Origin: a virus
Lineage: Duplodnaviria; Caudoviricetes
DNA length: 64,000 nucleotides
Strand: one strand, 5' to 3'
Virus record (IMG/VR): IMGVR_UViG_3300045938_000125
Location: 4,721 to 68,720 of that record
The position numbers were made by a program, and so were the translations under genes. Under the pieces are notes generated by a model. The model did no database searches, was not told the DNA's origin, and saw nothing but the letters and a program-made list of their open reading frames with translations. How positions within the stretch are numbered: position 1 is the first letter of the stretch; each line of letters starts with the position of its first letter. This document shows positions 16,794 through 35,043 of this stretch, piece by piece.

Positions 16794-16832
16794 TAAACCA
16801 CCCCGCCAGGTGTTTTACAATGATTGCCTTTT

Positions 16833-17855
16833 ATGTACGACCTACTTTCTAGCTCTTGCTGGGCCCTGGAGTCCAAGTTCTACTCTATCGCCAAGGCGGC
16901 CATCTTCGCTCGCATCGAGCAAGGGCTGCCGGCGCTGGATGCCAGCGAGGCGAAACCGCGACAGTATTCGCACATGGCTGAGGGCTACCCCACGATGTGG
17001 GTAACCCAGGCCGGTGAGCTGGCCGGCCTCGACGTGAAGCCGCAGGGCCACGGGCTGAACCTGGCCTCGGGCATTGCCCAGGTGCTGGCCGGCCGCAGTG
17101 GCGGGGCCAGCTCCGCGAATACCAGCGGCTCGAAGGTGGCCGTGATTCCGGTGCAGGGCACCGTGCAGAAGCGGGGCGGCTACTGCTCACTGGGCACCAA
17201 GGACCTGGTGGCGCACATCAACGCCGCCAACCGCGACCCCGAAATCTCGGCCATCGTGCTCGACATCGACTCGCCCGGTGGGCAGGTCGATGGCACCGAG
17301 GAGCTGGCCCAGGCCGTGGCCCTGAGCGGCAAGCCTGTCGTGGCTTACATCGACGGGCTGGGCGCCAGCGCTGCCTATTGGATTGCCTCGCAGGCCAGCT
17401 CCATTTTCATCAATAGCGCCTCGACTGCTTACGCTGGCTCGCTGGGCGTGCTGTGCATGAGCGTTTTCCAGGGCGCGTTCCTGGAAAAGCAGGGCATCAA
17501 GGTGGAAATTCTGCGCTCGACCCGCGCCACCGACAAGGCACGCATGAACCCGGTAGAGGCGCTCAGCGACGACGTGCGCGCCGCCGTGCAGGCCGACCTC
17601 GACCAGATTGGCGAAACATTCATCGAAGCCGTCACCAAGGGCCGCGCCGGCAAGCTGAGCACCAAAGAGGACGTGTTCACGGGCAAAGTCTACAAGGGCT
17701 CGGACGCTAAGAAACACGGCCTGGTTGATGCCATCGGCTCGCTGCAAGACGCTGTTAATCACGCCGCCAAGCTCGCCCAAACGGGCGGCGGTAAATCTGC
17801 TTCATCCTTTACCCAAAACTTTAATTCCGCATGGCAAAGTTCGCCAATATCCTAG
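16833..17855 (+). CDS. S49 (SppA-like) prohead maturation protease
   Basis: IVLDIDSPGG.VDGT, ASAAYWIAS, GSLGV motifs. Confidence 0.92.
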   Translation: MYDLLSSSCWALESKFYSIAKAAIFARIEQGLPALDASEAKPRQYSHMAEGYPTMWVTQAGELAGLDVKPQGHGLNLASGIAQVLAGRSGGASSANTSGSKVAVIPVQGTVQKRGGYCSLGTKDLVAHINAANRDPEISAIVLDIDSPGGQVDGTEELAQAVALSGKPVVAYIDGLGASAAYWIASQASSIFINSASTAYAGSLGVLCMSVFQGAFLEKQGIKVEILRSTRATDKARMNPVEALSDDVRAAVQADLDQIGETFIEAVTKGRAGKLSTKEDVFTGKVYKGSDAKKHGLVDAIGSLQDAVNHAAKLAQTGGGKSASSFTQNFNSAWQSSPIS

Positions 17856-21517: not shown

Positions 21518-21696
21518 TGAGCAAGCTCCTACTCCTCGTGTTCCTGCTGAGCCTGGCGCTCGGCAGCTGCTCACCCACCCGCCACACCGCCAGCGCCCCC
21601 CGGCCCTGGGTTCGCTACTACCACCGCAAGCAGCGCAAGCAGGAGCGTGCGCGTCGCCGGCAAGTTAAAACCAACGTCACGTGGAGCAAACTATAA
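21517..21696 (+). CDS. Small cationic lipoprotein (59 aa)
   Basis: MSKLLLLVFLLSLALGS-C lipobox; TAATG coupling; missed by the ORF track. Confidence 0.65.
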   Translation: MSKLLLLVFLLSLALGSCSPTRHTASAPRPWVRYYHRKQRKQERARRRQVKTNVTWSKL

Positions 21697-22307
21697 ACTG
21701 GCGGCCCGAGACGCGCCGCCTCGACCAGCTCACGCCGCTCGAAAACAACCCGTTCGGCAAGATTACCCAGGAGAAGCGCCGCCGCCTCGAAGGCAAGCTG
21801 CGCGAGCTGGGCGTGTTTGAGGCGGCTACCCTCGACACGGCCGACGTACTGCTGACCTTCAACAAGCGCCACAACCTGCTGCTGGGCATGTATGGCGGGG
21901 CCTACGTGGTAAACGTGCTCGTGCCCGACCGCGAGCTATCAGCGGACGAGCGCAAGAAAATCGTGCTGACCTCCAACGTCAACGAGGGTGATTGGATTGA
22001 TGAGATTCTGCGCAGTGACTACGCCGACGTGCTCGACGAGGTGGGCCTGATGCTGGCCGCGATGGATGAGCAGGTGAGCGATGCCGGCGCTGCAGGAAAG
22101 GAAGCGGCACCCGAATATCCCATCGTAGCCGAGTTCAGCGAGAAGTATAGCTCTTACATCATTGTGTGCCGCAATGAGATAGACGAAAACAACGTGCGCG
22201 AGCTGTTGGGCGTGGAGAAGCGCCAGAGCTACAAATCGCAGGAAGTGGGCCTTACCCACGTCATTGACGCCAAAGACTTTGCCGCCCGATGCACGTTGAA
22301 ATCGTAA
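21681..22307 (+). CDS. ParB-like N-terminal domain protein
   Basis: L.PLENNP...LGVF...VLVPDRELS.DE.KK.V..SN.NEGDW pattern; GHxR-type motif replaced by FNKR. Confidence 0.65.
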   Translation: MEQTINWRPETRRLDQLTPLENNPFGKITQEKRRRLEGKLRELGVFEAATLDTADVLLTFNKRHNLLLGMYGGAYVVNVLVPDRELSADERKKIVLTSNVNEGDWIDEILRSDYADVLDEVGLMLAAMDEQVSDAGAAGKEAAPEYPIVAEFSEKYSSYIIVCRNEIDENNVRELLGVEKRQSYKSQEVGLTHVIDAKDFAARCTLKS

Positions 22308-23029
22308 TCCCCAGCCACAAGCGGGCCGGGCGTATTCCGACGCTCGACCTGCTGCCCTCGGCCGTGGTGTGCATCCCGACGAGCCAGGCGCCCGAATACC
22401 GGGCCGCGCACCCGGGCGCGCAGCTGGTGCTGCACCCCGATGACGTGCTCGGCTTGCAGGCCAAGCGCAACTGGATGTACAAGCATTTCGGCAACCTGCT
22501 CATGGTCGATGACGACCTGACGGACTTCCGCCGGCTGTACCTGCCTGCCGGCGAGCCGGTGGGCATTAAGGACGAGGCCCGCATCCTGGCCATCGTGAAC
22601 GAAACCGCCTACGCGGCCAAGCAGGCCGGGGCGTATCTGTTCGGGTTCAACTCGAACCAGAACCCCACGATGTACAAGGCGCTGAACCCGATACAGCTTA
22701 CGGGCTGGATTAACGGCTGCGCCCAGGGCATCCTGGCTGGCTCGAAGCTCTGGTGGAGCACCGATATCAAGTGCAACTGTGACTACTGGATATCGGCGCT
22801 CAACGCTTACCACCACCGCATTATCTGGCGCGATAACCGCTTTTGCTTCACTCAGAAAGACACCTTCACGGGTGCGGGGGGCCAGGCCGAGTTCCGCAAC
22901 ATGGAAGCCGAGGCGGCCGACTTCGCGCTACTGAAGCGCTGCTTTGGCGAGGCTATTCAGGAGAAGAAGGACAGCAAGCTAGCCAAGCGCAAACATCAAT
23001 TTCAGAAGACTTTAAAAATACCCTTTTAA
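22289..23029 (+). CDS. GREB1-related / TET-associated glycosyltransferase (TAGT)-like protein
   Basis: IVIPSHKRAG, KRNW, LLMVDDDL (DxD), EDY-like CDYW.S, TFTGAGGQ motifs. Confidence 0.75.
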   Translation: MHVEIVIPSHKRAGRIPTLDLLPSAVVCIPTSQAPEYRAAHPGAQLVLHPDDVLGLQAKRNWMYKHFGNLLMVDDDLTDFRRLYLPAGEPVGIKDEARILAIVNETAYAAKQAGAYLFGFNSNQNPTMYKALNPIQLTGWINGCAQGILAGSKLWWSTDIKCNCDYWISALNAYHHRIIWRDNRFCFTQKDTFTGAGGQAEFRNMEAEAADFALLKRCFGEAIQEKKDSKLAKRKHQFQKTLKIPF

Positions 23030-23031
23030 TT

Positions 23032-23361
23032 ATGTTACAGCGACTTTGCTTCTATTTTGTTATGGCTTTTATGGTTGCCTTCGTGGTAGACTGCTCAGGG
23101 GGTAAGTCCCTGGTGCGCGAAGGCCAGGTAATCGACCAGGTGTACATACCTGCGCACACGTCTTGGACTACCGATAGCAAAGGGCATCTCAAGTCAGTAT
23201 ACACGGCTGACGATTACACCGTCGTCGTGCGCACGGATGCCGGCATTGTCAAGGTCGATACCGATGCCAACGGCTACTACTCGGTGAAGCCGGGCAAGCA
23301 CGTGAGCTACCGCGTGCGGCACGGCTGGCTCTCTAATCACGATTGGTTTCCTAGCCTCTAA
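23032..23361 (+). CDS. Small membrane/secreted protein
   Basis: N-terminal hydrophobic segment followed by Cys. Confidence 0.6.
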   Translation: MLQRLCFYFVMAFMVAFVVDCSGGKSLVREGQVIDQVYIPAHTSWTTDSKGHLKSVYTADDYTVVVRTDAGIVKVDTDANGYYSVKPGKHVSYRVRHGWLSNHDWFPSL

Positions 23362-23366
23362 GAGCC

Positions 23367-23636
23367 ATGAAAATCGCAATCGTAGGTGCTGGTCACATGG
23401 GAATGGCTTTGGCGTTGCTTTGCGTTTCCAAGGCGAAAGCCATTGGTATCGAGGCTGAGGCGAGGGAAGCCACGCCAGCTGAGGAGAAGTACTGCAAGCC
23501 GATAAAGCCAGTGGTTATTGAGCCACTGGTTTGTCCTGAAACAGTCACTGCCTTCGAGCAACCTCGATTCAATGGCTATATGGGCCACCGTCCCAAGCCA
23601 GCGTATCAATTGCCTAAGGTTAAAAAGTGGAAATAA
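23367..23636 (+). CDS. Hypothetical protein with Rossmann-like N-terminal motif
   Basis: MKIAIVGAGHMG then unrelated sequence; 89 aa. Confidence 0.5.
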   Translation: MKIAIVGAGHMGMALALLCVSKAKAIGIEAEAREATPAEEKYCKPIKPVVIEPLVCPETVTAFEQPRFNGYMGHRPKPAYQLPKVKKWK

Positions 23637-23637
23637 G

Positions 23638-23671
23638 AAAAGCCCCCGATGACTGCCATCGGGGGCTTTTT
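23638..23671 (+). terminator. Intrinsic terminator
   Basis: AAAAGCCCCCGATG-ACTGC-CATCGGGGGCTTTTT. Confidence 0.9.
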
Positions 23672-23727
23672 CATGCCCTTTTGGCTGTGGATAAATAATT
23701 GAAAAATAATGAGTTAAAAGGATTTTG

Positions 23728-23789
23728 AAATTAGTGTATCTCGCTGTGTATGAAGACCTTTACAATATCAAATCACCCACACAACTCAC
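23728..23789 (+). promoter_or_regulatory. Repeated cassette promoter/leader, copy 1
   Basis: 35-bp + 24-bp identity with 26107-26168. Confidence 0.7.
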
Positions 23790-23794
23790 ACACA

Positions 23795-24646
23795 ATGAGC
23801 ACCCTAGTTCAAAATTTCCCCAAGCGCAAAGCCCGTCGTATCGCCAACTTCGTGCCCCCCGCTGAGACTCCCCAGGTAGTAGCCGCGCCCGCCCCCGTCG
23901 TAGTGCCGGTAGAGCTACCAGCCCCGCCCGCGCCCGTGGTGCCCTGCCCGGCCCCGAAGGCCCCCAGTGGTGCCCTGCTCGACATCCTGGCCTGCCCCGT
24001 GCCGGCGAGCACCCGCACCTACGCCCCGGTTAGCCACATCGCGCTTATTGACGCGGTGAAGGAAGAACTCGACAAGCGCGGCCTCATCCTGAAGGACGAG
24101 CGCTACCAGCACAATCGTAGCGGTCAGCAAATGTTCGGGCACATGGCCATCGGTGGTGGCAACGGCGAGCAGGACCTGGCCCTGGGCTTCCGCAACAGCT
24201 ACGACAAGAGCTTGCTGCTGGGCGCGGCGGCCGGCGCGCGCGTCATCGTTTGCTCGAATCTGATGTTTGCCGGCGACTTCAAGGTGCAGGCGATGCACAC
24301 ACCCAGCGGCCTGGCGGCCGGCCTCCAGAGCCTGGTGCGCGGGGTGGTCGATAACCTCGAAGCGCAGTTCAAGCGCATTCAGGTTGATACCGAGAAGCTT
24401 AAGCAGGTGGAAGTAAACCCGCGCCTGATTCACGAAATCCTGGGCGAACTATTCTACTCCGAATCGGTGGTAAACGAGGCGCAGCTGCGCATCATTCGCG
24501 GCGAGCTGCGCGAGCAAACCAACTTCGGAGCCGGCACGCTGTGGGACATCTACAACCACACCACCGAGGCGCTGAAGACCACGCCCAGCGGCCTGGTTAT
24601 CGGCCGGCACATTGAGGCGCACCAGTTCTACCTACAGCGCGCTTAA
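23795..24646 (+). CDS. DUF932 (DUF945 / TIGR03299-like) protein
   Basis: TYAPVSH..LID, LALGFRNSYDKS, GARVIVCSNLMF, TLWDIYNH.T motifs. Confidence 0.8.
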   Translation: MSTLVQNFPKRKARRIANFVPPAETPQVVAAPAPVVVPVELPAPPAPVVPCPAPKAPSGALLDILACPVPASTRTYAPVSHIALIDAVKEELDKRGLILKDERYQHNRSGQQMFGHMAIGGGNGEQDLALGFRNSYDKSLLLGAAAGARVIVCSNLMFAGDFKVQAMHTPSGLAAGLQSLVRGVVDNLEAQFKRIQVDTEKLKQVEVNPRLIHEILGELFYSESVVNEAQLRIIRGELREQTNFGAGTLWDIYNHTTEALKTTPSGLVIGRHIEAHQFYLQRA

Positions 24647-24724
24647 CTCCTAACTATTAACTGTGTACCTGTGCCTCCGGCTGCCTGCCGGTCGGAGGCC
24701 TGGCTACGCCTTTGCCTTAACCCA

Positions 24725-25315
24725 ATGAGTAAGTACGATTTAAGAACCGCCAAGGGCCACGATTTCTTTGAAGTGTCGAGCGCCTTTCAAAAGTGTATCC
24801 GTCGGGGCCTCGAAGAAGACGCGATGTATTGGGCCGTGGAGCTGTTCAACTCCAACTACGGCGAGTATATCTGGAAGCGCCTGCGCATCATGGCCAGCGA
24901 GGACGTGGGCCTGGCCAGCCCCGGCATCGTGAGCGAGGTGCACGCGCTCTATCAAAACTATAAGCTCCAGGCTGCCAAGAAGGAAGATAAGAACCAGCCG
25001 GAGCGATTGTTCCTGACGCACGCCGTGCTGCTGCTTTGCCGCGCCCCCAAGTCGCGCCTCGTGGATTGGGTGCTGATTGCCCAGTGGCGCCTGCACGACC
25101 ACGTGCACCTGCCAATCCCAGACTTTGCTTACGATAAACACAATGAAGCGGGGCGGCGGGCTGGGCGGGGTTGGAAGCACTTTTTCGAGGAGGGCAGCCA
25201 CCTCGAAAACATGGCCGACGTGCCCGGTGAGGCCGATGCCCGGTGCAAGGCGATGCAGGCAATTTCCAGCCCGGAGCCGGGGCTATTCGACCTCGAAGGC
25301 AATGCCAAAGGGTGA
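24725..25315 (+). CDS. Stand-alone RarA/MgsA C-terminal-like domain (no P-loop ATPase)
   Basis: SAFQKCIRRG..DAMYWA.EL...Y.WKRLRIMASEDVGLA.P matches the post-ATPase part of RarA/MgsA; no Walker A in the 196 aa. Confidence 0.75.
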   Translation: MSKYDLRTAKGHDFFEVSSAFQKCIRRGLEEDAMYWAVELFNSNYGEYIWKRLRIMASEDVGLASPGIVSEVHALYQNYKLQAAKKEDKNQPERLFLTHAVLLLCRAPKSRLVDWVLIAQWRLHDHVHLPIPDFAYDKHNEAGRRAGRGWKHFFEEGSHLENMADVPGEADARCKAMQAISSPEPGLFDLEGNAKG

Positions 25316-25970
25316 CCAGAAGGCCGCTGTGATGCGGAAGCACGAGCTAAGCGAGCCGGGCTACTACGCTTTTTCGTCTCGGGTGGGCCAACAGCGCCAC
25401 TTCAATGTGCAGACCGCCAAGCTTCTTGCGGCCTGCGGATTGGACCCGCTGCGCCTGCTCGATGCGCTGAGCCGCCCGGCCCCGCCCGACGTGCTCACCG
25501 ATGAGCAGCTGCTGGAGTGGCTCTGCACCGAATGCGATTGCCCCATAACCATCCTGCGGGCCTACGTAGGGGCCGGGGGCGAGCAGCCCGATGGGTCGGA
25601 GTGGGGCCGCATCGCAGCTGGGCTCAACTCGACCACCGAGGCGAGCCTGCGCCGCTGGGGCGACGTGAACCACCTCACCCCGCAGCTGCTGCGCCGCTAC
25701 ACTGCCCCCGATGGCTTGCCGCTCGATACACAGGCCGATATCCTTAGCGCCGACTACGACGGCGAGCCGGTGGAGCCGGATGCGCTGTGGCAATTCATCG
25801 TGGCTCACCCGGCCGGCCAGCACACCTACCGCCCCCAGAGCTACGGGCACCGCCTGGCTGAGCGCTTTCGACGAGTGGCCGGCTTCCGCCTTACCTGGAG
25901 CTACGCCAGCACTTTGGTGGCCCTCATAAATGCGCCCAGCGCAGTCGAGGACGACGATTGCCCCTTTTGA
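25302..25970 (+). CDS. Hypothetical protein with SSB-like acidic C-terminal tail
   Basis: Ends AVEDDDCPF; overlaps the upstream gene by 14 nt. Confidence 0.7.
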   Translation: MPKGDQKAAVMRKHELSEPGYYAFSSRVGQQRHFNVQTAKLLAACGLDPLRLLDALSRPAPPDVLTDEQLLEWLCTECDCPITILRAYVGAGGEQPDGSEWGRIAAGLNSTTEASLRRWGDVNHLTPQLLRRYTAPDGLPLDTQADILSADYDGEPVEPDALWQFIVAHPAGQHTYRPQSYGHRLAERFRRVAGFRLTWSYASTLVALINAPSAVEDDDCPF

Positions 25971-25977
25971 ACGACGA

Positions 25978-26007
25978 AGCCCGGCCGGCAATTGCCGGTC
26001 GGGCTTC
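25978..26007 (+). terminator. Hairpin, probable terminator
   Basis: AAGCCCGGCCGGC-AATT-GCCGGTCGGGCTT; weak U-tract. Confidence 0.55.
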
Positions 26008-26106
26008 TATCAATCACCCGACGGTGTCTCACAACTTACACCGTTGGACTACAAAGCTACGTCAGCGGGCTAAATATTTGAAAAATAAGGTGTTAAAAGG
26101 TCGCTA

Positions 26107-26168
26107 AAATTAGTGTATCTCGCTGTGTATGAAGACCTTTATACTATCAAATCACCCACACAACTCAC
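26107..26168 (+). promoter_or_regulatory. Repeated cassette promoter/leader, copy 2
   Basis: See 23728-23789. Confidence 0.7.
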
Positions 26169-26178
26169 TCACAACCAC

Positions 26179-26537: not shown

Positions 26538-26732
26538 ATGGCAACCGCTCTCAAATCCCGCAAACTCACTATTGAACGCAGCTACCGCCCCGGCAAGTGG
26601 GGCGTGCTCGCGCAGACCTCCCGCATCATGCTCAAGGGCAAGTGGCTCGAAGCAGCTGGCTTTGCGGCCGGCGACCAGGTGCACGTGCACGTGGCCGATG
26701 GCGTGCTCACGCTGAGCACCGCCCCGGCGTAA
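26538..26732 (+). CDS. symE: SymE-family (type I toxin / AbrB-fold) protein
   Basis: RIMLKGKWLEAAGFAAGDQVHVHVADGVLTL. Confidence 0.75.
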   Translation: MATALKSRKLTIERSYRPGKWGVLAQTSRIMLKGKWLEAAGFAAGDQVHVHVADGVLTLSTAPA

Positions 26733-26735
26733 AAC

Positions 26736-26770
26736 CGTCCTACTAGGGCCCTATGCGGGATTACATCTTG
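26736..26770 (+). promoter_or_regulatory. Prophage A late-type promoter copy 6
   Basis: CGTCCTAC-N19-ACATCTTG; hairpin GCGGGATTACA/TGTAATCCCGC 26755-26786; ATG 26792. Confidence 0.6.
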
Positions 26771-26791
26771 AGTGGTGTAATCCCGCTTTTT

Positions 26792-27316
26792 ATGAAAAAA
26801 CTCGGCAAACCCGACAAACTAGACAAGTACCGCATGCACCTGGTGGATGGGGCCGACCTCAAAGAGGACGAGCTCACGATGCTGGCCAAGTATCGCAAGG
26901 CCCACGGCCTGCTCTGCCTCGGCTTCAGCCGCAACCAGGTGCTGGCCACCCTGGAGAAGGAATACGAGCTGAGCCAGCCGCAGCTCTACGCCATCGTGCG
27001 CGAGAGCATCACACTATACGGCTCTATCGAAGAGGTCGATAAAAAGGGCCAGCGCGTGATTGCCGTGGAGAATTACAAGCTCCTGGCTAACCTGGCCCGC
27101 AAGAATGGGGACATCGGCAACGCGATTCGGGCGCAGGAGCTGAGCGATAAGCTGCAAGGGCTCTTCGAGGCTGAGAAGACGCTGCTCGACCCGAAAGCCT
27201 TCCTCATCCCCGTGCCGATGGACTTCAGCACCGACCCCGCAGTACTGCGCGAGCAGGAAACGCAGGATATTGACTTTGAGGACGTAAGCGAAGGAGGCGA
27301 CGACGATGCAGAGTAA
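26792..27316 (+). CDS. terS: Terminase small subunit (putative)
   Basis: Helical protein overlapping the start of TerL. Confidence 0.6.
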   Translation: MKKLGKPDKLDKYRMHLVDGADLKEDELTMLAKYRKAHGLLCLGFSRNQVLATLEKEYELSQPQLYAIVRESITLYGSIEEVDKKGQRVIAVENYKLLANLARKNGDIGNAIRAQELSDKLQGLFEAEKTLLDPKAFLIPVPMDFSTDPAVLREQETQDIDFEDVSEGGDDDAE

Positions 27317-28793
27317 GGAAGCACGTCGGCGCGTCTACGTCAACGAAAAGCAGCGTCAGTTTCTGGCTGCCAGGCAAAAGCGTCGTAGCTACGTAGGCGG
27401 CCGGGGCTCGGGTAAGACCACCGTAGCCGGCCACGAAACCCGCGTGGAAATGAACTACCTGCCCAGGGCCAAGGGCTTTCTGGCGGGCCTCACCTACACC
27501 CAGCTCACCAGCAACACGGTGCCGGCGATGGAAGGGGCCTGGCAGGCCCACGGCCTGCGCGAGTACGACCAAAAGTCGGGTTTTGGGCACTACGTGAAGG
27601 GTAAGCGCCCACCACTTGAGTGGATTAAGCCCTACCAGCCCCCCAGCAACTACGAGAACGTTATCAGCTTTCTCAACGGCTACACCATCCAAATGCTGAG
27701 CATGGACCGGGCCGAGCTGGCCCGTGGTGGTAACTACGACTTCGGCCACATCGACGAATCGGCGCTCATGAAGGAGGAGCACGTGAACAAGATTTTGCGG
27801 CCCATGATTCGGGGCAACATCTATCGTTTCAAGGACGAGCACCACCAAACCTTCTGCGACTACACGTCGGTGCCCTGGCTGCCCTCGGGCCAGTGGGTGT
27901 TCAAAACTGAAGACCTGGCCAAAGAAGACCCAGATAACTACTTCTTTCTCGAAAGCAACGCCTACGATAACGTGGCTGCGCTGGGGGAGAAGTACTTACG
28001 CGACCTGCGCAATGGTATGACCCCGCTGGAATGGGACGTGGAGGTAATGAATAAGCGCCTCACCAAGCTACCCAACTCCTTTTATCCCGCCTTCAATGAG
28101 GAGAAACATGGGGTATGGAAAACCTACACCTACATACACGACGATAAGACCGGGCTCACCTTACCCATTGACAGCGACCGCGACCCCACCCGTGAGCTGG
28201 AGCTATCGTTTGACTTCAACGCGGCCTTTACCTCGGTCACGGTGCACCAGGAGAATGGTAATGAGTTTCGTACCCTGGATGCGCTCTGGGTGAAGCAGAG
28301 TGCTACTACCGTGCTCGATGCGTTGGTATCTAAGTTCATCGCTACCTATGAGAGCCACGAACGCAAGCACGTGGTTATCTACGGTGACCGGAACGGTAAC
28401 AACAAGCAGGTGGGCAGCAACCTCACCTTTTACCAAACCATCCAGCAGCAGCTGGCCGCAGCTGGGTGGACCTCAGTACTGATGGTGCAGGGCCTCGACC
28501 CTGACCACCGGCTAAAGCATATCGCTATTAACGAGATGCTGGCTGAGAACAACCCGCGCCTGCCCGTGCTGCGCTTCAATCGCAACAAGTGTAAGTTCGT
28601 TATCATTAGCATGACCCAGTCGCCTATCAATCCCGACTGGACCAAGAACAAGAACAGCGAGAAGAGTAGCATCGACCAAGAGCGCGCGACTCACCTAAGC
28701 GACTGCTTCGACAACATCGTGTACCGCAAGTATGGCCACCTCTTTGGCCAGGCGCAGGTGCACGAGCCCGTCTACTTCCTTGGTCGAGGCTAG
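27306..28793 (+). CDS. terL: Terminase large subunit
   Basis: Walker A YVGGRGSGKT, Walker B HIDES, nuclease LSFDFN, C-terminal THLSDCFD. Confidence 0.92.
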   Translation: MQSKEARRRVYVNEKQRQFLAARQKRRSYVGGRGSGKTTVAGHETRVEMNYLPRAKGFLAGLTYTQLTSNTVPAMEGAWQAHGLREYDQKSGFGHYVKGKRPPLEWIKPYQPPSNYENVISFLNGYTIQMLSMDRAELARGGNYDFGHIDESALMKEEHVNKILRPMIRGNIYRFKDEHHQTFCDYTSVPWLPSGQWVFKTEDLAKEDPDNYFFLESNAYDNVAALGEKYLRDLRNGMTPLEWDVEVMNKRLTKLPNSFYPAFNEEKHGVWKTYTYIHDDKTGLTLPIDSDRDPTRELELSFDFNAAFTSVTVHQENGNEFRTLDALWVKQSATTVLDALVSKFIATYESHERKHVVIYGDRNGNNKQVGSNLTFYQTIQQQLAAAGWTSVLMVQGLDPDHRLKHIAINEMLAENNPRLPVLRFNRNKCKFVIISMTQSPINPDWTKNKNSEKSSIDQERATHLSDCFDNIVYRKYGHLFGQAQVHEPVYFLGRG

Positions 28794-34081: not shown

Positions 34082-34126
34082 ATGTATCCAGAATTTGGAT
34101 ACATAAGAACGGCCGACGTACCTTTG
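34082..34126 (+). promoter_or_regulatory. Consensus Bacteroidota promoter with overlapping palindromic operator
   Basis: TTTG(34094-97)-N21-TACCTTTG(34119-26); ATGTATCCA-GAATT-TGGATACAT at 34082-34104. Confidence 0.75.
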
Positions 34127-34158
34127 ACATATCAAATCACCCTCACAGCTCACACACC

Positions 34159-35043
34159 ATGTCAACCTTCACCAACACCCCCGAGGCCCGCGAGCAGTTC
34201 CGCAAGCTCATCATTTCCAGCGTTCGCCAAACCCGTGACGGGCTGCCTGTTGCGCAGGTTCGTCAAGTAGCCGAAGTGCTCGATGTCAAGTATTTGGAAT
34301 CAAAAGAAACCCGCACGGAAGAGCAGGCGCTTTCGCAGGTGCTGGTGCGCGTTGGCGAGCAGCAACACACCTGGTACGTACTCGAAATCGCCTATGGTGA
34401 TTTTGATGATGCCGACAACTGGTGCCACGTATTTGAGGCGCAGCACCCCGCCCGTGAGCTGTACCTCGACTACCTCGACCCCGAGGGCCGCTCGGCTAAG
34501 ATTGCCAAGGTGGAGCAGTCGGTTTTTGAGGTAATTATGCCAGGCAAAGACACGAGGCACGTGGTCGGCGTGCTGCATCAGGGTAAGCTGTGCAAAGTCG
34601 TCGGCGTGGGACTCGGGAGCCAGTACCGCGAATATTTCGCGCCTTACTTCAATACTGAAAAGCTGACTCCTGCCCAGATGGACGAAATCCGCCAAATGGA
34701 GCGTTTGCACCGGGCCGAGTCCGATGCCCAACTATGGAACCGCCCCGATTTGTTGGCTGGGGCTTTTGTGCTCGGTGATAATGGCAACGGCCGCTTTGTT
34801 AAAAGTGACCAGCACGCCAGCTTTTGCCGCCACCACTGCTGGGAAACCGGCCTCACCTACTTCGAGTTGCGCACCCGCGTGCCGGCCGAGGTGTTCGCGG
34901 CACTGCGCAAAGATGCTGAGCTGTTCTACCACGACCACCAAATCGAGGAAGAAGGCGATTGGAAAGCGTGGTGCACCATGGACAATATGCGCGCCGGCGA
35001 GGTGCTGGCCCGCTTTGGCTGGGAGATAGCCGTGGCCGACTAA
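34159..35043 (+). CDS. Hypothetical protein (moron)
   Basis: Own promoter and terminator; leader resembles 23766 and 26145. Confidence 0.75.
   Translation: MSTFTNTPEAREQFRKLIISSVRQTRDGLPVAQVRQVAEVLDVKYLESKETRTEEQALSQVLVRVGEQQHTWYVLEIAYGDFDDADNWCHVFEAQHPARELYLDYLDPEGRSAKIAKVEQSVFEVIMPGKDTRHVVGVLHQGKLCKVVGVGLGSQYREYFAPYFNTEKLTPAQMDEIRQMERLHRAESDAQLWNRPDLLAGAFVLGDNGNGRFVKSDQHASFCRHHCWETGLTYFELRTRVPAEVFAALRKDAELFYHDHQIEEEGDWKAWCTMDNMRAGEVLARFGWEIAVAD

What the first reader, a model, noticed from the sequence alone, without database searches (positions are those of the whole stretch)
23795..25970. DUF932 + ATPase-less RarA/MgsA C-terminal domain + SSB-tail protein: a possible SSB-hub hijacking module
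Seen: a three-gene cassette with its own promoter and terminator. Gene 2 has only the post-ATPase part of RarA/MgsA; gene 3 overlaps it and ends EDDDCPF. Known: the bacterial SSB tail (DDDIPF/DDLPF) recruits repair proteins; E. coli MgsA binds it through its C-terminal oligomerisation region; DUF932 is typical of phage/plasmid early or leading regions. Inference: gene 2 is an SSB-tail-binding adaptor or dominant-negative RarA, and gene 3 is its cognate partner or an SSB mimic. Together they could remodel fork repair or blind SSB-sensing defences.
Basis: partly seen in the sequence, partly recalled or inferred. Interest (0 to 1): 0.75.

Follow-up and report, generated by a model that had tools for sequence, protein, structure and literature searches.

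The report
RarA-tail hub with SSB-like-tailed phage partners
A Hymenobacter phage carries an ATPase-less piece of the repair protein RarA next to a new protein family whose most conserved feature is a C-terminal tip like that of bacterial SSB, inside a DNA-glycosylation gene island, which suggests a phage-built docking hub for "PF-tailed" proteins.

Summary
The three genes are real and lie where reported: DUF932 (23795-24646), a standalone RarA/MgsA C-terminal domain (g2, 24725-25315) and an orphan ending EDDDCPF (g3, 25302-25970). Strong hairpins bracket them and they follow a repeated leader.

g3 founds an undescribed family of 278 clusters with no Pfam or PHROG match. Its confident all-helical model has no PDB fold match. 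Across about 20% identity, only one Asp and the terminal Pro-Phe stay essentially invariant. The tail consensus [DE][DE]-(V/C/L)-P-F matches the SSB C-terminal tip; host SSB ends DQLPF.

Every small g3 with enough flank has g2 within 5 kb, in four gene orders. DUF932 is confined to the Hymenobacter lineage.

g2's strongest partner is ParB-like + TAGT glycosyltransferase: 64 of 70 distinct viral loci, and again in Microbacterium phages. These TAGTs also end in ...K(L/I)PF. Some g3-less phages place g2 beside a DUF3127 SSB-like protein ending DEDCPF.

Best reading: g2 is a RarA-derived receptor for hydrophobic-Pro-Phe tails, and TAGT, g3 and SSB are its clients. No binding was tested.

The parts
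21681..22307 (+). ParB-like ORF, first gene of the conserved triad
   Evidence: No Pfam hit of its own. Its C-terminal half is 27% identical (E 3e-6) to the Microbacterium phage CrazyRich 'ParB-like nuclease domain protein', which has Pfam ParB_N at 34.9 bits. Homologues occur in 65 of 80 viral loci fetched via g2.
22289..23029 (+). TAGT glycosyltransferase ending ...KTLKIPF
   Evidence: Pfam TAGT 66 bits. A homologue lies within 5 kb of g2 in 64 of 70 distinct viral loci and is directly adjacent in 19. 71 of 87 such homologues end in PF and about 9 in PY.
23637..23671 (+). Hairpin terminator upstream of the cassette
   Evidence: 15-bp stem, -26.7 kcal/mol, z -6.2, followed by a T-run.
23695..23794 (+). 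Shared promoter/leader element ending at the g1 ATG
   Evidence: An exact 32-mer is repeated at 26110-26141. 96 nt are 90% identical to the copy at 26079-26174, and a partial third copy lies near 34120-34161.
23795..24646 (+). g1, DUF932 protein with a Pro/Ala-rich N-terminus (lineage-specific insert)
   Evidence: Pfam DUF932 27.5 bits against cut-off 23; PHROG 1221. Found next to g2 only in Hymenobacter-type loci.
24725..25315 (+). g2, standalone RarA/MgsA C-terminal domain with its own ...PGLFD motif near the C-terminus
   Evidence: Pfam MgsA_C 42.3 bits; PHROG 33349 80 bits; PDB RarA chains at E 1e-7 to 1e-4. At least 648 clusters of ~190-aa standalone homologues. 30-36% identical to the host's 450-472-aa RarA-like frame. 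GLF-type motif in 115 of 120 homologues.
25302..25970 (+). g3, new all-helical family with an SSB-Ct-like C-terminal tip
   Evidence: 47 close homologues and 278 clusters by profile search. No Pfam or PHROG match. AF2 model pLDDT 93.6 with no PDB fold match. Overlaps the g2 stop codon by 14 nt.
25932..25967 (+). g3 tail, residues 211-222 (...PSAVEDDDCPF)
   Evidence: A variable-length linker precedes invariant P221 and F222. pLDDT falls to 63-71 here. Consensus [DE][DE]-V/C/L-P-F.
25976..26007 (+). Hairpin after g3
   Evidence: 14-bp stem, -31.5 kcal/mol, z -6.4, no T-run.

Best explanation
g2 and g3 belong to a phage DNA-modification island whose conserved core is ParB-like + TAGT glycosyltransferase + a standalone RarA C-terminal domain (g2).

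I propose that g2 is a receptor, probably oligomeric, for extreme C-terminal hydrophobic-Pro-Phe tails. It would be derived from the part of RarA that docks on the SSB tail. Its clients would be the TAGT enzyme (tail ...K-L/I-P-F), the new helical protein g3 (tail [DE][DE]-V/C/L-P-F) and SSB-type proteins, either host SSB (...DQLPF) or phage DUF3127 (...DEDCPF). A multivalent g2 could then bridge SSB-coated DNA at forks to the glycosyltransferase and to g3's still unknown effector domain.

Shown: the homologies, the tail conservation and the gene linkage. Inferred: that g2 holds the pocket, that the tails bind it, that g2 oligomerises, and that the purpose is fork tethering. DUF932 is a lineage-specific passenger in the same operon.
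For: g2 has the MgsA_C domain only.

RarA binds the SSB C-terminal tail in E. coli and B. subtilis (PMC5389604 and PMC6101539).

In g3, the terminal P-F and one Asp are the only invariant columns across 43 diverse members. 67 of 81 small representatives end in PF, with acidic residues at -4 and -5 and V/C/L at -3. The tail follows a variable linker and has low pLDDT.

Every small g3 with adequate flank has g2 within 5 kb, in four arrangements: overlapping g2->g3, g2->g3 with a 163-nt gap, g3->g2 with a 272-nt gap, and g3 1.3-3.1 kb upstream.

In 301 genomes of the host order, the same 5 genomes hold both genes.

TAGT lies within 5 kb of g2 in 64 of 70 distinct viral loci. The triad recurs in Microbacterium phages.

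71 of 87 of these TAGTs end in PF, whereas the T-even-type TAGT of phage CC31 ends ...EPTL.

A DUF3127 SSB-like protein ending DEDCPF sits 20 nt upstream of g2 in L098.

Host SSB ends DQLPF, and the phage record has no SSB of its own.
Against: No binding was tested or modelled; the tools fold single chains only.

Which RarA domain binds SSB-Ct is not stated in the papers I could read.

The TAGT tail is preceded by basic residues, not acidic ones. It may therefore use a different pocket, or the ParB-like protein.

The Microbacterium phage glycosyltransferase ends ...KVP without Phe, and no PF-tailed protein lies near g2 there.

g2 is nearly universal in this phage group. That g3 always co-occurs with g2 could therefore reflect a single acquisition inside a g2-bearing clade rather than functional coupling.

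The g3 domain also occurs without a tail inside giant proteins with no g2 nearby (L135).
Confidence: 0.42

Rival explanations
1. g3 is an SSB-tail decoy that titrates or recruits host SSB-interacting proteins. g2 is a dominant-negative RarA or a blocker of host SSB tails. Together they remodel fork repair or hide the phage from SSB-sensing defences.
For: The g3 tail matches the SSB-Ct consensus better than the host's own tail does. The phage record has no SSB, so host SSB must be used. g2 is 30-36% identical to the host RarA C-terminal region, which in principle could allow mixed oligomers.
Against: It does not explain why g2 is tied to ParB-like + TAGT across two phyla, or why TAGT carries a PF tail. 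g2 exists in many phages without g3. No defence-related family matched. 30-36% identity is low for co-assembly with host RarA.
Confidence: 0.2
2. The tails address other receptors. TAGT and g3 PF tails would dock on the ParB-like clamp or another phage protein. g2's own conserved ...GLF(D) end would dock on the beta sliding clamp. g2 would contribute DNA-end or junction binding rather than tail binding.
For: The ParB-like ORF co-occurs almost as tightly as TAGT, in 65 of 80 loci. 115 of 120 g2 homologues carry an [LMIF]F motif in the last 20 residues, and the Microbacterium version has PGMFDV. The host RarA lacks this motif. From memory only, this resembles the QLxLF clamp-binding motif. ParB partners are known to activate phage DNA-modifying dioxygenases (PMC13229309).
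Against: No evidence shows that ParB-family proteins bind PF tails. The one documented PF-tail binder with homology in the island is RarA. The clamp-motif resemblance is weak because the position-1 Gln is not conserved.
Confidence: 0.2
3. There is no specific coupling. g2, g3 and DUF932 are independent accessory genes that sit in the same variable region upstream of the terminase genes in one phage group. The PF ends are structural or stability features.
For: All g3-bearing loci belong to a broadly syntenic phage group with TAGT ... terS-terL order. The region also holds unrelated cargo such as an N6-methylase and SymE/AbrB-like genes.
Against: Over about 20% sequence identity the terminal dipeptide is more conserved than any core residue but one. 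The same tail type appears on three unrelated scaffolds beside g2. Linkage survives four different gene orders. In the Hymenobacter lineage g2 and g3 overlap in a way that suggests translational coupling.
Confidence: 0.12

Closest known systems
Bacterial SSB C-terminal tip (SSB-Ct, E. coli DDDIPF) as a docking peptide for genome-maintenance proteins
   Same: g3 ends in an acidic, hydrophobic, Pro-Phe-COOH tip after a variable, low-confidence linker. The tip is the most conserved part of the family.
   Different: g3 has no OB fold and no PF00436 match. Its body is a ~200-aa all-helical domain with no PDB match. Its linker is much shorter than the SSB disordered linker. ssDNA binding is unknown.
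RarA/MgsA/WRNIP1 AAA+ proteins (E. coli RarA, PDB 3PVS)
   Same: g2 is homologous to the conserved post-ATPase C-terminal domain (Pfam MgsA_C) and keeps its motifs (SAxQKxIR, EDxGLAxP, PKS).
   Different: g2 has no AAA+ ATPase or lid module. It is a ~190-aa standalone protein on phages and prophages and has an added ...GLF(D) C-terminal motif that the host RarA lacks.
Phage ParB-associated DNA hypermodification neighbourhoods (5mYOX/TET + ParB + glycosyltransferases; PMC13229309; bioRxiv 10.1101/2023.12.21.572611)
   Same: A ParB-like gene next to a TAGT-type glycosyltransferase in phage genomes. The figure legend of that paper lists 'AAA' ATPase genes in such neighbourhoods.
   Different: No dioxygenase or hydroxymethylase was seen in this island. 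The ATPase-less MgsA_C partner, the PF tails and g3 are not described in the texts I could read.
Phage T7 gp2.5 acidic C-terminal tail ending in Phe (from memory, not checked here)
   Same: A phage protein uses an acidic tail with a terminal aromatic residue as a docking peptide for replication proteins.
   Different: gp2.5 is itself an OB-fold ssDNA-binding protein; g3 is not.
Giant multidomain phage proteins (polyvalent or virion 'structural' proteins of Bacteroidota podoviruses)
   Same: The g3 core domain (about residues 50-210) recurs inside 1-5-kaa proteins. It also matches BFVD models of a Podoviridae 'Type I restriction enzyme' protein (E 3e-6) and a Tenacibaculum phage 'structural protein'.
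   Different: In those proteins the domain is internal and has no PF tail. Eleven giants tested had no significant Pfam domain, so their nature is unconfirmed.

Membership tests
DUF932 (PF06067), for g1 | Pfam model match above the gathering score | tested here: met
   27.5 bits against cut-off 23, E 3.4e-6, residues 90-275 of the 298-aa ORF version.
RarA/MgsA AAA+ ATPase, for g2 | N-terminal AAA+ ATPase module (Walker A/B) and lid | tested here: not met
   No AAA or AAA_assoc_2 Pfam hit. The protein starts at the equivalent of RarA residue ~240-250. NCBIfam RarA models score 22-37 bits against cut-offs of 570-1197. Homologues are uniformly ~190 aa.
RarA/MgsA AAA+ ATPase, for g2 | MgsA_C C-terminal domain | tested here: met
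   PF12002 42.3 bits against cut-off 27. PDB chains 8g28, 2r9g, 3ctd and 3pvs match at E 1.6e-7 to 9e-5.
RarA/MgsA AAA+ ATPase, for g2 | Binding of the SSB C-terminal tail | not testable with these tools
   Documented for full-length RarA (PMC5389604, PMC6101539). The domain responsible is not stated there, and no complex prediction is available here.
Bacterial SSB (PF00436), for g3 | OB-fold ssDNA-binding domain | tested here: not met
   No Pfam hit at E <= 0.1. The AF2 model is all-helical at pLDDT 93.6.
Bacterial SSB (PF00436), for g3 | Conserved acidic C-terminal tip ending Pro-Phe after a flexible linker | tested here: met
   P221 and F222 are invariant in A1 and A3. Consensus [DE][DE]-V/C/L-P-F. 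Linker length varies and pLDDT is 63-71.
ParB-like / TAGT / MgsA_C phage DNA-modification triad (defined here) | The three genes lie within 5 kb on one strand | tested here: met
   In the window: 21681-22307, 22289-23029 and 24725-25315. 64 of 70 distinct viral g2 loci have TAGT. Microbacterium phage CrazyRich has the same triad.
ParB-like / TAGT / MgsA_C phage DNA-modification triad (defined here) | DNA is actually glycosylated, with a substrate base-modifying enzyme present | not tested
   No TET/JBP or hydroxymethylase was looked for beyond the Pfam scans. The chemistry cannot be tested here.
Anti-phage defence systems (PADLOC) | Match to any PADLOC model | tested here: not met
   No hit at E <= 0.01 for g1, g2, g3, the ParB-like ORF or TAGT.

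The most novel reading that the evidence does not exclude
The RarA C-terminal domain is a dedicated receptor for hydrophobic-Pro-Phe-COOH tails. Phages have excised it as a portable hub. Around it they have built a private 'mini SSB interactome': a DNA glycosyltransferase, a new effector domain (g3) and SSB-like proteins all carry matching tails. This would couple base hypermodification and another unknown activity directly to SSB-coated replication intermediates.
Probability: 0.3. Interest if true: 0.85.

Novelty: new variant of a known kind. Interest (0 to 1): 0.68.

Why it matters
SSB-tail docking is the organising principle of bacterial genome maintenance. RarA is one of its most conserved clients and one of the least understood. 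A natural, ATPase-less RarA fragment that travels with three unrelated proteins bearing SSB-type tails gives a simple system for asking where and how RarA reads that tail.

It would also show how phages could tether post-replicative DNA-modifying enzymes to forks, which is an open point in the ParB-dependent hypermodification pathways.

It also adds a new protein family of 278 clusters. The family has no structural relative in the PDB searches run here, and its core domain is reused inside giant phage proteins.

Tried and rejected
I took neighbourhoods from the search for related loci and the genome search instead.
- The first fold of g3, with 24 close homologues, was poor (pLDDT 58.6). I replaced it with a 102-sequence alignment.
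- Foldseek against the PDB gave nothing below E = 1. VIA-align wide gave a best Z of 5.4 on the N-terminal helix only. The ESM Atlas gave no usable hit.
- blastn and tblastn of the cassette, g3 and one giant homologue against GenBank phages found nothing.
- Single-protein scans of viral contigs with remote g3 members P0057 and P0053 found nothing. Two alignments were too diverse to scan.
- A phylum-level sample of 401 genomes added no new g3 hosts.
- Iterative HMM searches did not find DUF932 next to g2 outside the Hymenobacter lineage, so I dropped it from the module.
- Eleven giant homologues had no significant Pfam domain, so the 'polyvalent protein' label stays unconfirmed.
- Page et al. 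2011 and Iyer et al. 2013 are not held.
- Literature searches for MgsA_C, DUF932 and SSB-Ct mimics gave no functional report.
- My g2 queries started one codon early, at 24722 (an extra Pro). This has no effect on the results.
Full report
**Setting.** The window is most of a 68.7-kb IMG/VR virus record. Close homologues of its genes lie in Hymenobacter genomes and prophages, so the host is a high-GC member of the Cytophagales. Nearly all genes are on the + strand. The finding lies between a ParB-like/TAGT gene pair (21681-23029; TAGT Pfam 66 bits) and the small and large terminase genes (26753-28793).

- g1 (23795-24646, 283 aa) passes the Pfam DUF932 threshold, though weakly: 27.5 bits against a cut-off of 23.
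- g2 (ATG 24725, stop 25315, 196 aa) matches only Pfam MgsA_C (42.3 bits) and PHROG 33349/16866. It aligns to the post-ATPase part of solved RarA-type chains, residues 238-377 of 8g28 and 250-349 of E. coli RarA 3PVS.
- g3 (25302-25970, 222 aa) overlaps the end of g2 by 14 nt and ends EDDDCPF. Its MPKGDQK start is conserved in homologues.
- Two strong hairpins bracket the three genes: -26.7 and -31.5 kcal/mol, z about -6.
- The three genes follow a ~100-nt leader that recurs before the next cassette at 26.1 kb and, in part, at 34.1 kb.

**g3 is a new family defined by its tail.**
- A word-based search found 47 close relatives, where named almost all Hymenobacter. A profile search of 1.8 billion representatives found 278 clusters at E <= 1e-3.
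- None of the members tested matches Pfam or PHROGs in the g3 domain.
- In an alignment of 43 members sharing about 20-30% identity with the window protein, the only invariant columns are one Asp (D121) and the terminal Pro-Phe. In 102 sequences these remain invariant or above 90%.
- 67 of 81 small representatives end in PF, and several others end in IF, AF or GF. Position -3 is V/C/L/A/M. Position -4 is acidic in 61% and position -5 in 48%.
- The tail follows an indel-rich linker.
- In the same loci, only 5 of about 2400 ORFs outside the g3 and TAGT families end in PF.
- This is the architecture of the bacterial SSB C-terminal tip. The Hymenobacter SSBs end ...EPELDQLPF, and the phage record has no OB-fold SSB.

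**Fold of g3.**
- With the deep alignment, AlphaFold2 gives a confident all-helical model: pLDDT 93.6, pTM 0.79, 12 helices. The last 12 residues have low confidence.
- Foldseek finds no PDB relative below E = 1. The exhaustive VIA-align search gives only Z 5.4 on the N-terminal helix.
- In BFVD the core matches segments of giant podovirus proteins: a 'Type I restriction enzyme' protein at E 3e-6 and a Tenacibaculum phage 'structural protein'.
- The profile search likewise finds the core, g3 residues ~50-210, inside 1-5-kaa proteins on 45-150-kb contigs. There it has no PF tail.
- The core is therefore a reusable module of unknown activity, and the small proteins add the tail.

**Linkage of g2 and g3.**
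- In 14 genome and viral loci of the Hymenobacter lineage the order is g1-g2-g3 between TAGT and terminase. L012 has no g1 hit, and TAGT was not detected in the truncated loci L006 and L018.
- In more distant Cytophagales phages, where g2 is 53-68% identical, g3 lies 1.3-3.1 kb upstream of g2 (gap between ORFs). An N6-methylase and/or a SymE/AbrB-like gene sits between them.
- In L029 and L054 the order is g2 then g3 with a 163-nt gap. In a remote metagenome contig (L134) it is g3 then g2 with a 272-nt gap.
- No small g3 with usable flanks lacks g2.
- In a sample of 301 genomes of the host order, g2 and g3 each occur in 5 genomes, and they are the same 5.
- DUF932 was found beside g2 only in the Hymenobacter lineage, so it is not part of the conserved unit.
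- Caveat: all g3-bearing loci belong to one broad phage group in which g2 is nearly universal. Co-occurrence alone therefore cannot prove coupling.

**g2's main partners are ParB-like and TAGT.**
- Standalone MgsA_C proteins of ~190 aa are common, with at least 648 clusters. They are much better conserved than g3.
- Of 70 distinct g2 sequences in viral contigs, 64 have a TAGT homologue within 5 kb. Four of the six exceptions sit at contig ends. In 19 loci TAGT is directly adjacent upstream, usually preceded by the ParB-like ORF.
- Cultured Microbacterium phages such as CrazyRich carry this order: ParB-like nuclease (Pfam ParB_N), hypothetical, glycosyltransferase, UDP-glucose dehydrogenase, then an 'AAA-ATPase' that is MgsA_C-only.
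- The CrazyRich ParB-like, glycosyltransferase and MgsA_C proteins are each 27-30% identical to the window's. The triad therefore spans phages of two phyla.
- An Arthrobacter phage keeps g2 among DNA-metabolism genes, and a Stenotrophomonas phage keeps it next to UDP-glucose 4-epimerase.

**More PF tails beside g2.**
- The TAGT homologues of these loci have a conserved C-terminus...[QE][KR]T[LM]K[LIV]P[FY]. 71 of 87 end in PF and about 9 in PY. The window's ends KTLKIPF.
- The T-even-type TAGT of phage CC31 ends ...EIEPTL, and T-even phages did not appear among the g2 hits. The Microbacterium enzyme ends ...TVKVP.
- In some g3-less phages g2 lies by a DUF3127 small SSB-like protein ending DEDCPF (L098, 20 nt upstream of g2) or DEDLPF (L061). 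L059 has a 172-aa protein ending DDDIPF.
- Three unrelated scaffolds next to g2 thus share the hydrophobic-Pro-Phe-COOH end that host SSB also has.

**Mechanism.** RarA is documented to bind the SSB C-terminal tail in E. coli and B. subtilis (PMC5389604, PMC6101539). g2 is the only RarA-derived piece in the island. The most economical reading is that g2 is a receptor for such tails, and that TAGT, g3 and SSB-type proteins are its clients. If g2 oligomerises, it could bridge SSB-coated DNA to the glycosyltransferase and to g3. From memory of the 3PVS paper, which I could not read, this part of RarA mediates tetramerisation. All of this is inference. The basic context of the TAGT tail, the Phe-less Microbacterium version and the possibility that the ParB-like protein is the receptor all count against it.

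**Also seen.** g2 has its own conserved C-terminal motif...SGNGLF(D), in 115 of 120 homologues. The Microbacterium version is PGMFDV, and the host RarA lacks the motif. From memory it resembles a sliding-clamp-binding motif. No PADLOC model matches any of the five proteins.

**Verdict.** It is wrong about the boundaries of the unit and unsupported on purpose. The g3 family and the recurring 'RarA-C plus PF-tailed neighbours' pattern appear undescribed in the literature I could search.

Noticed in passing
window 25260-25315 (g2 C-terminus) and homologues P0198-P0317: Standalone MgsA_C proteins carry a conserved C-terminal motif, ...(S/G)xGLF(D)-COOH, in 115 of 120 homologues. The Microbacterium phage version is PGMFDV and the host full-length RarA lacks it. 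It resembles a sliding-clamp-binding motif (from memory only).
   Followed up: partly
window 23006-23029 (TAGT C-terminus): The TAGT glycosyltransferase ends KTLKIPF. 71 of 87 homologues in g2-bearing loci end in PF and about 9 in PY, but the T-even-type TAGT of phage CC31 does not.
   Followed up: partly
L098:4616-4942 and L061:2643-2984: DUF3127 small SSB-like proteins end in DEDCPF or DEDLPF. The L098 copy lies 20 nt upstream of the MgsA_C-only gene in a phage with no g3.
   Followed up: partly
P0075, P0079, P0094, P0121, P0157 and others; L135:7454-12985: The g3 core domain is embedded, without the PF tail, in giant 1-5-kaa proteins on 45-150-kb contigs. These proteins have no significant Pfam domain at all. 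BFVD relatives are annotated as podovirus 'Type I restriction enzyme' and 'structural protein'.
   Followed up: partly
window 26544-26732: This small ORF (MATALKSRKL...) belongs to the SymE/AbrB-like family. That family also sits between g3 and g2 in related phages (Pfam SymE_toxin hits in L035 and L051).
   Followed up: partly
window 26070-26178 and ~34120-34161: Second and partial third copies of the leader that precedes g1 (…ACCTTT…TATCAAATCACCCACACAACTCAC…ATG). Each ends at the start codon of another small cassette.
   Followed up: partly
window 23023-23636: Two small ORFs lie between TAGT and the upstream terminator: one of 112 aa with a hydrophobic, lipoprotein-like N-terminus and one of 89 aa. 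They are poorly conserved among related loci, so this stretch is variable.
   Followed up: no
window 16824-17855: An S49/ClpP-type prohead protease lies about 10 kb upstream of the terminase genes. The order of the structural modules in this record is unusual, or the record joins two elements.
   Followed up: no
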